From Octopus vulgaris (Eukaryota): 64,000 nucleotides of DNA. Below the pieces are notes generated by a model. That model was not told the DNA's origin and ran no database searches. It worked only from the letters and a program-made list of their open reading frames with translations. Location of the stretch: NCBI GenBank assembly GCA_951406725.2, contig OX597838.1:3596001-3660000 (forward strand). The letters are read 5' to 3'. Positions 3,616-43,846 of this stretch are shown one piece after another; within the stretch, counting starts at the first letter, position 1, and each line of letters begins with the position of its first letter. The translations under genes were made by a program, and so were the position numbers.

Positions 3616-3698
3616 CTACTGCGGGTAGGCTGGGTAGTCTCTGATACGTGGACCAGTGTTATAACCATTGCCGTAAAATACATCGTCATCATTTATGC
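3616..3698 (-). CDS. Gene 1 probable terminal coding exon ([27 protein letters not shown])
   Basis: Strong T-rich acceptor (tttttttctttcag) and matching phase 1. Resembles the terminal exon of the paralog at 60328-60395. Confidence 0.7.
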
Positions 3699-42600: not shown

Positions 42601-43846
42601 TATACACACACACGCAAACATACAAAATTTATCATAGTTTCTGAAATATGAATAACCCTTTTTTACTACCAGCACAAGGCCAGCAATTTTGGCAAAGAGG
42701 GTAAGTCGATTGCAGCGACCCCAGTGTTCAACGGGCAGTTATTTTATCGACCCCGAAAGGATGAAAGGTAAAGTCGACCTCGGTGGAATTTGAACTCAGG
42801 ATTTTATGGCAGACGAAATGCCGCTTAGCAAGTTGCCTGGCGTGTTAACGATTCTCCCAGCGCGCCACCTTATAATATCAACAATAACAACGACAACAAC
42901 AGCATCAATAATAATAATAATCCTTTCTACTATAAGCACAAGGCCTGAAATTTGGGGGAGGGGGCCCAGTGCGTAACTGGTACTTATTTTATCGACCCTG
43001 AAAGAATGAAAAGCAAAGTCAACCTCAGCGGAGTTTGAACTCAGAACGTAAAGACAGACGAAATGCCGCTAAGCATTTCGCCCGGCGTGCTAACGTTTCT
43101 ACCAGTTTGCTGCCTCGAATAATCTTTTCTACTATAAGGATAAGGCCAGAATTTTGGGGGCAGGGATCAAATCGATAACATCGAGCCAAGTGTTCAACTG
43201 GTACCTATTTCATCCAAAAGGATGAAAGGCTACGTCGACCTAGGTGGAATTTGAACTCAGGACGAAATGTTGCATAGACGCAGGAGTGACTGTGTGGTAA
43301 GAAGTTTGCTTACTTGCCACATGGTCCAGGGTTCAGTTCCACTGCGTTGTACCTTGGGAAAGTGTTTTTTTTCTATAGCCTCGGGCAGACCAAAGCCTTG
43401 TGAGTGGATTTTGTAGACGGAAACTGAAAGAAGCCCATCGTATATATGTATATATATATATATATATATATGTTTGTGTGTGTGTGTGTGTGTGTGTGTG
43501 TGTATGTGTTTGTGTGTCTGTGTTTGTCCCCCCACCATCGCTTGACAACCGATGCTGGTATGTTTACGTCCCCGTCACTTAGCTGTTCGGCAAAAAGAGA
43601 GACCGGTAGTCTAAGTATTAGGCTTACAGAGAATAAGTCCTGGGGGGGGGGTCGATTCGCTCGACTAAAGGCGGTGCTCCAGCATGGCCGCAGTCAAATT
43701 AATGAAACAAGTAAAAGAGTAAAAAGAGTAAACAGAGTAAAAGAGCAAGCATTTTGCCAGGAGTGCTAACGATTCCGACATCTCACCATCTTAGGTTCAC
43801 CATTATTAATTATATTGATAATTCTTCTTAATTCCTTACCTTTCAT
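3616..43846 (-). CDS. Gene model (22 coding exons): class C GPCR with five tandem Venus flytrap domains + 7TM_3, ~2850 aa
   Basis: All 22 exons have GT-AG boundaries with matching phases and splice into one open frame of 8562 nt including the stop. mGluR/CaSR-type VFT motifs (G-D-x-x-I-x-x-x-F-x-I/L-H, DxC, SxxATS, RTVPxD, D-x-WG, NPWF) recur five times, followed by class C TM motifs. Confidence 0.88.
3760..4287 (-). mobile_element. ~500-bp interspersed repeat, copy 2
   Basis: Reverse complement of 1369-1871. Confidence 0.8.
5122..6178 (-). CDS. Gene 1 exon 21: 3-Cys stalk + entire class C 7TM domain
   Basis: Phase 0-1. IGSW...[13 protein letters not shown], then seven hydrophobic segments with class C motifs (TM3 '[22 protein letters not shown]', ICL3 '[11 protein letters not shown]'). 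Confidence 0.93.
6820..7045 (+). mobile_element. Second SINE family (tRNA-like head + 'ctttcatcctttcggggtcgat' Nin/Deu-like domain)
   Basis: gagctggcagaatcgttagcacgcc...gagttcaagttccgccgaggtcgactttgcctttcatcc. Copies at ~6350-6790, 11800-11995, 42660-43265, 53265-53640 and 56820-57230. Confidence 0.75.
7463..7696 (-). CDS. Gene 1 exon 20 (VFT5 C-terminal part)
   Basis: Phase 0-0. CRQD...[18 protein letters not shown]...YEYVK. Confidence 0.88.
8574..8979 (-). CDS. Gene 1 exon 19 (VFT5)
   Basis: Phase 2-0. [11 protein letters not shown]...GAITI...[12 protein letters not shown]. Confidence 0.92.
8995..9490. repeat. (AAT)n/(AAC)n microsatellite
   Basis: Direct inspection. Confidence 0.95.
11290..11729 (-). 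CDS. Gene 1 exon 18 (VFT5)
   Basis: Phase 0-2. [27 protein letters not shown]...[14 protein letters not shown]. Confidence 0.93.
12122..12547 (-). CDS. Gene 1 exon 17: VFT4/VFT5 junction with 3-Cys linker
   Basis: Phase 0-0. IGSYN...[12 protein letters not shown]...[11 protein letters not shown]...QCG...[10 protein letters not shown]. Confidence 0.9.
12617..13447. repeat. (ACAT)n microsatellite
   Basis: Direct inspection. Confidence 0.95.
14098..15407 (-). CDS. Gene 1 exon 16: almost the whole of VFT4 in one 1310-bp exon
   Basis: Phase 1-0. GLFDIH...SCG...DVCQS...VGPFDS...[10 protein letters not shown]...RTVPSD...ATDKWG...NAVFAAA. Confidence 0.93.
16196..16625 (+). mobile_element. tRNA-derived CORE-type SINE (octopus OR-like family), full length
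   Basis: tRNA-like head (gagtggctgtgtggtaag...gggttcagtccc), 'tgggcaagtg' core, internal (TA)/(TG) tract, (gagtaaa)n tail. Many copies occur in the window. Confidence 0.8.
16661..16829 (-). CDS. Gene 1 exon 15: VFT3/VFT4 junction with 3-Cys linker
   Basis: Phase 0-1. MAEYSG...[12 protein letters not shown]...SGDFTVVG. Confidence 0.87.
16960..17710. repeat. (GGT)n/(GAT)n microsatellite
   Basis: Direct inspection. Confidence 0.95.
17855..18410 (-). mobile_element. Tandem/nested array of three second-family SINE units
   Basis: Three successive 'cgaccccag...aaaggatgaaaggc...gtcgacctcg..gaatttgaactcag' units. Confidence 0.75.
18469..18903 (-). CDS. Gene 1 exon 14 (VFT3 C-terminal part)
   Basis: Phase 0-0. 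NPWFHEYFE...[11 protein letters not shown]...KCG...GIC. Confidence 0.9.
19308..19875 (-). CDS. Gene 1 exon 13 (VFT3)
   Basis: Phase 2-0. [12 protein letters not shown]...FFRTIPSD...DVCIA. The donor CAG|GTTGGT was chosen to keep phase with the next exon. Confidence 0.88.
20458..20672 (+). mobile_element. ~210-bp non-autonomous Helitron/Helentron-like element; second copy at 27810-28040
   Basis: Two diverged copies, with 'caaatttgagtgcaatcggatg', (acag)n and a 'ttttatataa(ta)gat' end. Confidence 0.5.
21664..21880 (-). CDS. Gene 1 exon 12 (VFT3)
   Basis: Phase 1-2. DQSPFVCGP...[16 protein letters not shown]...[10 protein letters not shown]. Confidence 0.9.
22539..22905. repeat. 50-bp minisatellite, ~7 near-perfect copies
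   Basis: Unit ggatggcaggatggaatgatgaaatactgagaaggatagaacggagggaa. Confidence 0.9.
23157..23358 (-). CDS. Gene 1 exon 11: VFT2/VFT3 junction with 3-Cys linker
   Basis: Phase 0-1. VGDYS...[11 protein letters not shown]...[15 protein letters not shown]. Confidence 0.9.
24457..25254 (-). CDS. Gene 1 exon 10 (VFT2)
   Basis: Phase 0-0. VLYSEDSYG...GICV...FIGLDSWG...NPWFIEWFQ...[10 protein letters not shown]...FDKNGFG. Confidence 0.92.
26666..27091 (-). CDS. Gene 1 exon 9 (VFT2)
   Basis: Phase 0-0. [12 protein letters not shown]...[16 protein letters not shown]...GWKYIQ. Confidence 0.9.
27210..27670 (-). mobile_element. Same SINE family, full length
   Basis: Reverse-complement match to 16196-16625. 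Confidence 0.8.
28165..28422 (-). CDS. Gene 1 exon 8: VFT1/VFT2 junction with 3-Cys linker
   Basis: Phase 0-0. VGSYSDG...[14 protein letters not shown]...[15 protein letters not shown]...SCG in one uninterrupted frame. Confidence 0.9.
29394..29750 (+). mobile_element. Third tRNA-derived SINE (GC-rich, apparently young)
   Basis: Head ggaggcgcaatggcccgtggttagggcagcggactcgcg...ggtttcgattcc with A and B boxes, followed by a non-tRNA body and an (aaac)n tail. Confidence 0.7.
29874..30432 (-). CDS. Gene 1 exon 7 (VFT1 C-terminal part)
   Basis: Phase 2-0. ENPWIKEWY...[12 protein letters not shown]...LCG...ICP...SFDKNGE...VWNY. Confidence 0.9.
30540..30926. repeat. (ATCT)n/(ACCT)n microsatellite
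   Basis: Direct inspection. Confidence 0.95.
32007..32239. mobile_element. Mariner-derived MITE
   Basis: ~30-bp TIRs: gggtgggtgctgaaaagttcctggcttt / aaagccaggaacttttcggtacccacc. A related copy with a nested SINE lies at ~7779-8331. Confidence 0.7.
32318..32715 (+). mobile_element. Same SINE family, full length
   Basis: Match to 16196-16625. Confidence 0.8.
32747..33093 (-). CDS. Gene 1 exon 6 (VFT1)
   Basis: Phase 0-2. [18 protein letters not shown]...NLCL...WIVTDS. Confidence 0.9.
33589..33755 (-). CDS. Gene 1 exon 5 (VFT1)
   Basis: Phase 1-0. [11 protein letters not shown]...[29 protein letters not shown]. Confidence 0.9.
35126..35260 (-). CDS. Gene 1 exon 4 (VFT1)
   Basis: Phase 1-1. 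[13 protein letters not shown]...GENCNLPPG...MFLG contains the DxC motif. Confidence 0.85.
37047..37160 (-). CDS. Gene 1 exon 3 (VFT1)
   Basis: Phase 1-1. [20 protein letters not shown]...YVPGVLLG matches the VFT 'EAM.FA...IN...LLPG..LG' motif. Confidence 0.88.
37924..38127 (-). CDS. Gene 1 exon 2: signal peptide + start of VFT1
   Basis: ttttgtccag acceptor and cag|gtaagt donor. Translates to [29 protein letters not shown]...[26 protein letters not shown]. Not in the ORF track. Confidence 0.85.
38491..38562 (-). tRNA. tRNA-His (GUG)
   Basis: GCCGTGATCGTCTAGTGGTTAGGACCCCACGTTGTGGCCGTGGTAACCCAGGTTCGAATCCTGGTCACGGCA: 72 nt, perfect acceptor stem, anticodon GTG, intact A and B boxes, T-run downstream. 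Confidence 0.93.
38940..39730 (-). mobile_element. Same SINE family, with another element inserted in its internal (TA)n tract
   Basis: The two SINE halves (38940-39150 and 39565-39730) are separated by (TA)n-flanked unrelated sequence at 39285-39495. Confidence 0.7.
40120..40806 (+). mobile_element. Decayed Tc1/mariner (maT/DD37D-like) transposase fragment
   Basis: [16 protein letters not shown]..., [14 protein letters not shown] and [15 protein letters not shown] (degenerate WPPxSPDxNPLD). Ends in caccctgta. Confidence 0.7.
43275..43745 (+). mobile_element. Same SINE family, full length
   Basis: Match to 16196-16625. Further copies or fragments lie at ~7970-8285, 9590-9840, 18950-19170, 23990-24380, 47170-47325, 51997-52340 and 54225-54420. 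Confidence 0.8.
43840..43846 (-). CDS. Gene 1 exon 1, coding part (ATG AAA G|gtaagg)
   Basis: ATG with A at -3, followed by a consensus phase-1 donor. Joined to the next exon it gives [26 protein letters not shown], a signal-peptide-like N-terminus. Confidence 0.6.

What the first reader, a model, noticed from the sequence alone, without database searches (positions are those of the whole stretch)
3616..43846. Giant class C GPCR with five tandem Venus flytrap domains on one 7TM
Seen: 22 phase-consistent exons splice into ~2850 aa, with a signal peptide, five full VFT repeats (approximately VFT1 38050-29874, VFT2 28260-24457, VFT3 23210-18469, VFT4 16690-14098, VFT5 12410-7463) and a single 7TM. 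Four junction exons each read without interruption from the end of one VFT into the start of the next, with no TM segment, stop or signal peptide between them. This argues for one protein rather than a gene cluster. Known: characterised class C receptors (mGluR, CaSR, GPRC6A, T1R, V2R, GABA-B) carry one VFT per subunit. Inference: this is a 'poly-flytrap' receptor with an ectodomain of ~2500 aa, which could integrate several ligands or act as an extended scaffold or adhesion-type sensor. I know of no functional characterisation. Homologues may exist as uncharacterised predictions in molluscs.
Basis: partly seen in the sequence, partly recalled or inferred. Interest (0 to 1): 0.93.

Follow-up and report, generated by a model that had tools for sequence, protein, structure and literature searches.

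The report
Five-flytrap class C GPCR
This octopus gene encodes one very large cell-surface receptor with five ligand-trap (Venus flytrap) domains in a row above a single G-protein-coupled membrane domain; the design is old and shared by many invertebrates, its ligands are unknown, and no description of it turned up in the papers that could be searched.

Summary
Confirmed. 22 GT-AG exons splice in frame to 2851 aa: signal peptide, five Venus flytrap (VFT) units, one 7tm_3, no NCD3G. In 4 of 4 probable RNA runs junction exon 17 is spliced to VFT5; one contig runs on into VFT4. Orthologues of 2850-2900 aa lie on 8.8-11 kb contigs, so spliced. 29 of 35 hits have five VFTs in the same order; repeats group by position. 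Relatives carry four VFTs (chelicerates, crustaceans, acorn worm, crinoid), three or two (sea urchin, amphioxus).

Each unit keeps the mGluR lobe-2 cysteine (175 of 175) and a three-cysteine linker; arthropods lost one of each together, implying a disulfide staple. Only VFT5 has an unpaired cysteine in the mGluR dimer loop. Glutamate residues are gone; pockets are conserved in VFT3 and VFT4, dead in VFT2.

Most likely (0.5): a dimer sensing non-glutamate small ligands in VFT3/4 and relaying through VFT5. A second five-VFT gene lies upstream. Ten paper searches and three look-ups in this scan's notes found no description. New variant of class C; interest 0.77.

The parts
43840..43846 (-). Exon 1: start codon, 7 coding nt (tentative)
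   Evidence: Best ATG + phase-1 donor outside a microsatellite among 9 candidates; not read-confirmed
37924..38127 (-). Exon 2: signal peptide (aa 5-30), N-terminal Cys32, start of VFT1
37047..37160 (-). Exon 3: VFT1
35126..35260 (-). Exon 4: VFT1, with loop Cys138
33589..33755 (-). Exon 5: VFT1
   Evidence: ANF_receptor 32.2 bits
32747..33093 (-). Exon 6: VFT1, lobe-2 Cys250
   Evidence: ANF_receptor 32.9 bits
29874..30432 (-). Exon 7: VFT1; followed by the shared phase-0 intron
28165..28422 (-). Exon 8, junction 1: last strand of VFT1, 3-Cys linker, start of VFT2
26666..27085 (-). Exon 9: VFT2 (degenerate pocket)
   Evidence: ANF_receptor 43.2 bits
24457..25254 (-). Exon 10: VFT2, lobe-2 Cys763
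   Evidence: ANF_receptor 91 bits
23157..23358 (-). Exon 11, junction 2: end of VFT2, 3-Cys linker, start of VFT3
21664..21880 (-). Exon 12: VFT3
19308..19875 (-). Exon 13: VFT3, conserved pocket (Ser1163, Thr1186, Asp1206, Arg1312), lobe-2 Cys1252
   Evidence: ANF_receptor 83.3 bits
18469..18903 (-). Exon 14: VFT3
16661..16829 (-). Exon 15, junction 3: end of VFT3, 3-Cys linker, start of VFT4
14098..15407 (-). Exon 16: VFT4, conserved pocket (Ser1637, Thr1660, Asp1679, Asp1789, Tyr1884), lobe-2 Cys1725
   Evidence: ANF_receptor 137.9 bits; held by 16 probable RNA runs
12122..12547 (-). Exon 17, junction 4: end of VFT4, 3-Cys linker, start of VFT5 with unpaired loop Cys2104
   Evidence: Spliced to exon 18 in 4 of 4 runs and to exon 16 in the X9 contig
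11290..11729 (-). Exon 18: VFT5, lobe-2 Cys2217
   Evidence: ANF_receptor 91.6 bits; covered in 4 of 4 runs
8574..8979 (-). Exon 19: VFT5
   Evidence: ANF_receptor 29.2 bits; X9 loose end matches its start
7463..7696 (-). Exon 20: VFT5; followed by the shared phase-0 intron
5122..6178 (-). Exon 21: last strand of VFT5, 3-Cys linker, spacer of about 45 aa, class C 7TM
   Evidence: 7tm_3 104.7 bits; motifs
3616..3698 (-). Exon 22: C-terminal tail and stop
   Evidence: The O. bimaculoides protein P0085 aligns without gaps to the last residue, 92% over aa 1533-2851

Best explanation
A single-chain class C GPCR whose ectodomain is five tandem units of [mGluR-type VFT + three-cysteine remnant of the cysteine-rich domain]. 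SHOWN: the architecture, its transcription, its conservation by position, and the cysteine and pocket patterns. INFERRED, in steps: (1) the receptor dimerises like an mGluR through the membrane-proximal VFT5, whose spare loop cysteine forms the inter-subunit disulfide; (2) in every unit the lobe-2 cysteine is disulfide-bonded to the third linker cysteine, so the moving lobe of one flytrap is stapled to the linker that enters the next; (3) VFT3 and VFT4 (in most molluscs also VFT1) bind small amino-acid-like ligands other than glutamate, each with its own conserved specificity, while VFT2 is a structural spacer; (4) their closure is passed down the stapled chain, re-orients the VFT5 dimer and switches the 7TM, which keeps the class C ionic-lock pair, to G-protein signalling. 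The outer units thus add extra ligand inputs to one output. The array grew by tandem duplication; VFT2-4 are the younger copies.
For: Lobe-2 Cys in 175 of 175 spiralian repeats and three linker Cys in 174 of 175. In the second-last repeat of 34 arthropod proteins the lobe-2 Cys is absent in 34 of 34 and the third linker Cys is gone too (33 have two, 1 has none), while 93 of the 100 other repeats keep both features; this is one ancestral event, not 34. Cys in the loop after helix B, where mGlu1 has its inter-subunit Cys140 (PMC8310541, passages): VFT5 35 of 35, VFT1 33 of 35, VFT2-4 0 of 105. VFT2-4 mostly have 10 Cys, VFT5 mostly 11, and VFT1's extra Cys is matched by an N-terminal one. Arg78 is kept in 5 of 175 repeats and Lys409 in 2 of 175; PMC6307864 (passages) calls these critical for glutamate binding. 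The Ser/Thr-Thr/Ser-Asp triad is complete in VFT1 22, VFT2 0, VFT3 20, VFT4 24 and VFT5 13 of 25 A-type orthologues. Fourteen pocket columns beat random columns in VFT3 (0.001 of draws reach it) and VFT4 (0.022). 7TM: TM3 Cys and Lys3.50 25 of 25, Glu/Asp6.35 24 of 25, Trp6.50 24 of 25. Closest solved structures by sequence and fold are mGluRs. Repeats form clades by position, with VFT2-4 together at 98 (FastTree). A phase-0 intron sits at the same column in 5 of 5 units.
Against: No ligand, dimer or signalling was tested. Pocket columns of VFT1 (0.30) and VFT5 (0.84) are no more conserved than background. VFT4's 0.022 is one of five uncorrected tests, and the background includes surface columns. 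The window's own VFT1 deviates from the triad (Asp161, Ser184, Glu204). Tyr236 is lost in A-type VFT3 and VFT4 and Asp318 is mostly Arg in VFT3, so these are not canonical amino-acid sites. AlphaFold2 gives confident domains but low-confidence linkers and low overall scores (pTM 0.54 for VFT3-4 of an Elysia orthologue, 0.64 for VFT5+7TM), so a rigid relay is not shown. The stretch between the last linker and TM1 is poorly predicted (pLDDT under 50 at 511-520 and 525-531 of P0228). Arthropod terminal repeats lack the dimer-loop Cys (0 of 34), and their pockets are poorly conserved (5 proteins). Arg3.53 is Asp in 25 of 25 and the TM7 motif differs from mGluRs. No model coordinates were returned, so the disulfides were not checked in 3D.
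Confidence: 0.5

Rival explanations
1. The ectodomain is a long protein-binding arm: it contacts a partner on another cell or in the matrix, as the pocketless flytrap of Drosophila BOSS does with Sevenless, or acts as an adhesion-type or mechanical sensor. Small ligands are secondary.
For: VFT2 has lost the pocket yet is kept in every five-VFT protein examined (0 of 25 A-type with the triad). Repeat number and order are fixed across spiralians, as a length requirement would predict. Arthropod pockets are poorly conserved. A sister family has two VFTs on a single TM helix (20 of 20 checked). BOSS precedent: PMC11743138 (passages). Five units end to end could span roughly 30 nm (from recalled VFT size).
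Against: Pocket columns of VFT3 and VFT4 are more conserved than background and keep the amino-acid triad. No known adhesion domain was found by Pfam. BOSS lacks the cysteine-rich stem and dimer motifs, whereas this family keeps the lobe-2 Cys and a dimer-loop Cys.
Confidence: 0.2
2. Only VFT5 controls the 7TM, as in an ordinary class C receptor. VFT1-4 are uncoupled: ligand sinks, spacers or trafficking aids on flexible linkers.
For: In the window's protein VFT5 has the fullest canonical set (Ser2127, Thr2150, Asp2170, Tyr2198, Asp2280), and only VFT5 has the spare dimer-loop Cys. Linkers are low-confidence in AlphaFold2.
Against: Across 25 molluscan orthologues VFT5's pocket is less conserved than those of VFT3 and VFT4 (triad 13 against 20 and 24 of 25). 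The lobe-2 Cys and linker Cys are kept in the outer units too, which uncoupled domains would not obviously need.
Confidence: 0.2
3. Quaternary variant (compatible with the best explanation): the functional unit is a heterodimer of this receptor (type A) and the neighbouring five-VFT paralogue (type B), like GABA-B or T1R.
For: B lies 18 kb upstream on the same strand. A and B are separate clades present in cephalopods, bivalves and gastropods. B lacks Trp6.50 (0 of 6) and both keep the VFT5 loop Cys.
Against: Tandem paralogues are neighbours by origin. In Bulinus the two are on records with different contig lengths. The nemertean tandem pair groups apart from A and B in the full-length tree, so pairing is not ancestral. 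Co-expression was not examined.
Confidence: 0.2
4. The five blocks are a cluster of separate genes or an over-joined model.
For: Such fusions occur in databases: several long hits have fragmentary, out-of-order VFT pieces, for example P0097, named CASR, partial, from a fish.
Against: No signal peptide, stop or TM at any junction. Reads join VFT4 to VFT5. Seven of 35 hits are full-length proteins on contigs only 8.8-11.1 kb long; the cuttlefish one is seen on 93 contigs. Order and identity of repeats are conserved across phyla.
Confidence: 0.02

Closest known systems
Metabotropic glutamate receptors (mGlu1-8)
   Same: Closest solved relatives of VFT5+7TM by sequence (mGlu7, E 6e-71) and fold (mGlu3, Foldseek E 8.5e-45). 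Shared: lobe-2 Cys, a Cys in the dimer loop (VFT1, VFT5), the start of the cysteine-rich domain, TM3 Cys, Lys3.50, Glu6.35, Trp6.50.
   Different: Five VFTs instead of one; three linker Cys instead of the nine-Cys NCD3G domain; Arg78 and Lys409 lost; 7TM lies outside the mGluR+CaSR-like clade (branch 100/100).
mGluR class IV (insect mXR/DmX group; PMC6307864, passages)
   Same: Loss of Arg78 and Lys409 with backbone-binding residues kept; present in bilaterians other than vertebrates.
   Different: Class IV is described as the sister group of classes I-III, and the paper has no occurrence of flytrap, VFT or tandem. No labelled class IV sequence was in my tree.
CaSR / T1R / V2R / GPRC6A
   Same: VFT plus class C 7TM; nutrient and chemical sensing is a plausible functional analogy.
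   Different: Much weaker match (T1R3 E 7e-24, CaSR 3e-22); single VFT with NCD3G (PMC8687355 and PMC12716839, passages).
BvgS sensor kinase (PMC4352136, abstract and outline)
   Same: The known precedent for tandem flytraps driving one membrane output: mobile distal VFT1 and closed proximal VFT2 in an intertwined dimer.
   Different: Bacterial histidine kinase with two VFTs; no 7TM. That its VFTs are of another binding-protein class is recalled, not tested.
Drosophila BOSS (PMC11743138, passages)
   Same: Class C-like 7TM whose flytrap lacks glutamate residues; precedent for a flytrap used for protein contact.
   Different: One pocketless VFT, no cysteine-rich stem, no dimer motif.
Uncharacterised database predictions, e.g. 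O. bimaculoides LOC106868777, Aplysia LOC101861377, Saccoglossus LOC100374272, Centruroides LOC111630827
   Same: Orthologues or family members with 4-5 VFTs and one 7tm_3.
   Different: Labelled uncharacterised, hypothetical, 'metabotropic glutamate receptor 3-like' or 'pheromone and odorant receptor'; six such gene ids occur in no searched paper.

Membership tests
Class C GPCR | 7tm_3 transmembrane domain | tested here: met
   104.7 bits, cut-off 33.5; seven helices in the model
Class C GPCR | Extracellular VFT behind a signal peptide | tested here: met
   Five units; hydrophobic aa 5-30; each unit folds like an mGluR VFT, rmsd about 3-4 A
Class C GPCR | Conserved TM3 Cys, Lys3.50-Glu6.35 lock, Trp6.50 | tested here: met
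   25, 25, 24 and 24 of 25 A-type proteins; position labels recalled
Class C GPCR | Constitutive dimer | tested here: inconclusive
   Spare dimer-loop Cys in VFT5 in 35 of 35 spiralian proteins; not shown directly
Class C GPCR | G-protein coupling | not testable with these tools
   Needs a cell assay
mGluR classes I-III | One VFT per subunit | tested here: not met
   Five
mGluR classes I-III | Nine-cysteine domain NCD3G | tested here: not met
   No hit in 20 exons or in six full-length or partial spiralian orthologues, while three controls hit; three-Cys remnant only
mGluR classes I-III | Arg78 and Lys409 for glutamate | tested here: not met
   5 and 2 of 175 repeats; 8 and 7 of 8 in mGluR-like controls
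mGluR classes I-III | 7TM groups with mGluRs | tested here: not met
   Separate clade of 52 rows at 100/99; midpoint root only, several long branches
mGluR class IV | Arg78/Lys409 lost, backbone contacts kept | tested here: met
   True for VFT1, 3, 4 in most orthologues
mGluR class IV | Sister group of classes I-III | tested here: inconclusive
   No labelled class IV sequence in the tree; the family lies outside mGluR+CaSR-like rows
CaSR/T1R/V2R group | Single VFT + NCD3G, 7TM in that group | tested here: not met
GABA-B receptors | VFT joined to the 7TM with no cysteine-rich domain; GABA-B-type sequence | tested here: not met
   A Cys linker is present, and no GABA-B chain is among the 60 best of 178 PDB matches; no GABA-B sequence was in the tree

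The most novel reading that the evidence does not exclude
An undescribed, ancient family of invertebrate class C receptors with 2-5 serially coupled flytraps, in which disulfide-stapled VFT units form an allosteric chain: several different small ligands, bound up to tens of nanometres from the membrane, are summed or gated onto one 7TM dimer, possibly an A/B heterodimer with ten flytraps. Class C signalling would then be modular in a way that the single-VFT receptors do not show.
Probability: 0.3. Interest if true: 0.92.

Novelty: new variant of a known kind. Interest (0 to 1): 0.77.

Why it matters
Class C receptors are described with one flytrap per subunit (PMC12716839 and PMC8687355, passages). 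Here is a family that has kept a five-unit array, each unit with its own identity, across molluscs, nemerteans, a brachiopod and a flatworm, with four-unit relatives in ticks, spiders, scorpions and decapods. No insect, nematode or well-formed vertebrate member appeared among the named hits, which may be why it was missed. It gives a natural test of whether flytrap closure can be relayed through another flytrap, a set of new orphan ligand pockets, and candidate chemosensory or neuromodulatory receptors in cephalopods, bivalves, snails and ticks. Specific residues (Cys2104, the lobe-2 cysteines, the VFT3 and VFT4 pockets) make the mechanism directly testable.

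Tried and rejected
Complex prediction of VFT5 of the Sinanodonta A and B proteins, without alignments: no answer (0.18 and 0.16, mark 0.34). Not used for or against binding.

No listed run is on record as RNA; the four laid are guessed RNA and no DNA run was laid as control. 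I rely on the spliced joint, not on the label. Only 10300-12600 was laid, so junctions 1-3 were not seen. Table 7 was cut (195 rows not shown), so the loose ends into exons 16 and 19 are seen in 1 of 4 runs.

Whole-protein self-BLAST showed only the diagonal; repeats were compared after splitting. P0027 has the same length as the model but is a cuttlefish orthologue, not this protein. The O. bimaculoides records P0085 and P0227 are partial models. Long hits with 7-10 fragmentary stretches (P0094, P0096, P0097, P0106, P0119) were set aside as probable merged gene clusters; only P0097 was named. In one search the two-Cys count for terminal windows was rechecked for truncation. An ancestral A/B gene pair was rejected: the nemertean pair groups apart in the full-length tree, though the 7TM tree left it unresolved. 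No tree was tested with test_one_clade.

Literature: ten searches. Searches gave 0 papers; one gave only bacterial tandem-VFT papers and one on protein energetics; 30 was noise; others listed no title or abstract on multi-VFT GPCRs; 82 was for mGluR background. Passages read: PMC6408891, PMC2246102, PMC6307864, PMC9138782, PMC12716839, PMC8687355, PMC11682238, PMC11589774, PMC8310541, PMC11743138; abstract and outline: PMC4352136. None mentioned several VFTs on one GPCR in what I saw. Rondard 2006 (VFT-to-CRD disulfide) is not held and is recalled. No supplements were read; GPCR catalogues in supplements or subscription papers, for instance on the Saccoglossus repertoire (recalled), may list the architecture. 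Three look-ups in this scan's notes gave nothing on this family.

Full report
OBSERVATION. The minus strand carries 22 exons from 43846 to 3616. All 21 introns are GT-AG and the phases match, giving 8556 nt and 2851 aa with a single terminal stop. Hydropathy shows a signal peptide (aa 5-30) and seven helices (aa 2563-2804), with nothing membrane-like at the four junctions. Pfam finds ANF_receptor above cut-off in each of the five blocks, 7tm_3 in exon 21 and no NCD3G. A profile built from orthologues finds five complete units, aa 40-555, 562-1044, 1052-1514, 1522-2003 and 2011-2512, 19-28% identical to one another. The genome is an octopus, most likely Octopus vulgaris: the neighbouring gene matches a protein so named at 92-100%, and the O. 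bimaculoides orthologue is 92% identical over aa 1533-2851.

ONE TRANSCRIPT. Sixteen probable RNA runs from four studies hold exon 16. Four were laid on 10300-12600. All four join exon 17 (junction 4) to exon 18 across the predicted 392-nt intron. In run X9 the same 6574-nt contig has loose ends that match the end of exon 16 and the start of exon 19 letter for letter, so VFT4, the junction and VFT5 lie on one spliced contig. Contigs extend 1541-2776 nt upstream of exon 17, more than exons 15 and 16 together (1479 nt), and 3042-3156 nt downstream of exon 18, against 1780 nt of remaining CDS. If colinear, they reach VFT3 and pass the stop; this part is inference from lengths. Independent support comes from other species. 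Seven of the 35 hits are 2847-2893-aa proteins on assembled contigs of 8.8-11.1 kb, barely longer than the CDS and so without introns. Pfam gives five ANF stretches, one 7tm_3 and no NCD3G for the three of these that were scanned. The cuttlefish protein P0027 is seen on 93 contigs and aligns to the model with 14 small gaps, none at an internal exon junction. Exon 1 is tentative.

DISTRIBUTION. 29 of 35 hits have the order V1-V2-V3-V4-V5-7TM, each repeat matching the octopus repeat of the same position best (27-60% identity). They come from bivalves, gastropods, a cephalopod and nemerteans; partial models exist in the flatworm Macrostomum and the brachiopod Lingula. Four VFTs on one 7TM occur in 33 of 34 arthropod proteins examined (scorpions, spiders, ticks, a mite, horseshoe crabs, a sea spider, malacostracans) and in Saccoglossus and a crinoid; three in a sea urchin and an amphioxus; two in another amphioxus gene. 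No insect or nematode protein was among the named hits, but that search is word-based and length-limited, so absence is not shown; no annelid was named either. In the 7TM tree the spiralian and arthropod proteins form one clade (52 of 72 rows, 100/99), apart from mGluR and CaSR-like rows (100/100); the deuterostome proteins are on long branches and their place is unsure (27 near-duplicate or fragment ids were left out beforehand).

HISTORY OF THE ARRAY. Repeats group by position, not by species (FastTree, 99 rows). VFT2-4 form one clade (98). VFT1 groups with the first arthropod repeat and VFT5 with the last (96); the two inner arthropod repeats form their own clade, so the inner units were added separately in the two lineages. 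All five octopus units have a phase-0 intron at the same alignment column, just before the last strand. A block running from one such intron to the next can be duplicated in frame, which would explain the junction exons (inference). A second five-VFT gene (type B) lies 18 kb upstream on the same strand, with its 7TM exons inside the window. A and B are separate mollusc-wide clades; a tandem pair in nemerteans arose separately.

ANATOMY. The repeated unit is a VFT followed by the first part of an mGluR cysteine-rich domain, cut to three cysteines (alignment to mGlu7). The lobe-2 cysteine equivalent to mGlu1 Cys259 is present in 175 of 175 spiralian repeats, and three linker cysteines in 174 of 175. 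In mGluRs this cysteine bonds to the cysteine-rich domain and is needed for coupling (Rondard 2006, recalled; not held). The second-last arthropod repeat has lost both the lobe-2 cysteine (34 of 34) and the third linker cysteine: one event, but the one expected if the two are partners. VFT2-4 mostly have ten cysteines, all pairable. VFT5 has an eleventh in the loop where mGlu1 Cys140 is proposed to bridge the two subunits (PMC8310541), in 35 of 35 proteins; VFT2-4 have none there (0 of 105); VFT1 has one (33 of 35) but also an extra N-terminal cysteine that could take it up. Arthropod terminal repeats lack it.

POCKETS. Arg78 and Lys409, critical for glutamate (PMC6307864), are kept in 5 and 2 of 175 repeats. 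The triad that holds the amino-acid backbone (mGlu1 Ser165, Thr188, Asp208; numbering recalled) is complete in 22, 0, 20, 24 and 13 of 25 A-type orthologues for VFT1-5. Fourteen pocket columns are more conserved than random columns in VFT3 (0.001) and VFT4 (0.022), not in VFT1 (0.30) or VFT5 (0.84), and less in VFT2 (0.99) (uncorrected, crude background). VFT3 and VFT4 have their own fixed substitutions (Arg for Asp318 in 20 of 25 VFT3; Tyr for Lys409 in 23 of 25 VFT4). The window's own VFT1 departs from the triad, and its VFT5 has the full canonical set. The 7TM keeps the TM3 cysteine, Lys3.50, Glu/Asp6.35 and Trp6.50, but has Asp at 3.53 and a changed TM7 motif.

STRUCTURE. AlphaFold2 on an Octopus VFT5+7TM record (P0228) gave pLDDT 84.8, pTM 0.64; on Elysia VFT3-4 (P0003) 85.9 and 0.54, with linkers under 50. 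Foldseek matches both to mGluRs; in the tandem model one VFT at a time aligns, at rmsd about 3-4 A. The relative placing of domains is not resolved, so the models neither support nor refute a rigid chain.

MECHANISM. Most likely (0.5): an mGluR-like dimer held at VFT5, with outer flytraps stapled in series; non-glutamate small ligands close VFT3 and VFT4, and the movement is relayed through VFT5 to the 7TM. BvgS, with a mobile distal and a closed proximal flytrap (PMC4352136, abstract), is the functional precedent. Rivals: a protein-contact or adhesion arm as in BOSS (0.2); only VFT5 is coupled (0.2); separate genes (0.02). An A/B heterodimer (0.2) is compatible with the first. That the protein exists with this architecture I put at about 0.97.

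NOVELTY. It is a class C GPCR by its 7TM and VFTs, and it fails the tests for mGluR, CaSR/T1R and GABA-B membership. The proteins are in databases as uncharacterised or mislabelled. Ten searches and passages of ten papers showed no description of several VFTs on one GPCR; a 2025 survey lists only single-ANF architectures for metazoans in the passages seen (PMC12716839). Subscription papers and supplements were not seen. This scan's earlier notes hold nothing on it. Verdict: new variant of a known kind, in practice an undescribed family; interest 0.77.

Noticed in passing
window 61525-62013, 63351-63524, 63941-64000 (minus); continues to G000:C25:3684467: Second five-VFT class C gene (type B), 18 kb upstream on the same strand; its database model (P0241, 'glutamate receptor 3-like', 2570 aa) lacks part of the third VFT. 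About 29% identical to the gene studied.
   Followed up: partly
G000:C25 about 3560250-3567780 (minus), 28-36 kb beyond the window's start: A third class C-like gene with one VFT match and 7TM matches, downstream on the same strand.
   Followed up: no
proteins P0046, P0121, P0127, P0131, P0159 and others: A related family with two VFTs and a single TM helix near aa 1000-1085 (20 of 20 checked), with tails of varied length and no further Pfam domain in the 10 scanned; named members are from Lingula. Its repeats group with VFT1 and with VFT2-4.
   Followed up: partly
G000:C11:1474052-1475275, C4:145393877-145394905, C21:2943001-2943498, C3:103451206-103452393: Further long VFT-coding exons elsewhere in the genome, 26-34% identical to VFT4.
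   Followed up: no
window 38491-38562 (minus): tRNA-His (GTG) gene in intron 1, 360 nt upstream of exon 2.
   Followed up: no
window 11780-12000: Dispersed SINE-like repeat in intron 17 with very high contig depth in the probable RNA runs; 12 further matches in the window.
   Followed up: no
window 12155, 12182, 12212: Three linked differences in exon 17 on one of two short contigs in runs X1 and X5, and fixed in X13; probably an allele rather than editing.
   Followed up: no
proteins P0094, P0096, P0097, P0106, P0119: Long predictions with many fragmentary VFT pieces out of order, probably merged receptor clusters; they would be false positives in any search for multi-VFT architectures.
   Followed up: partly
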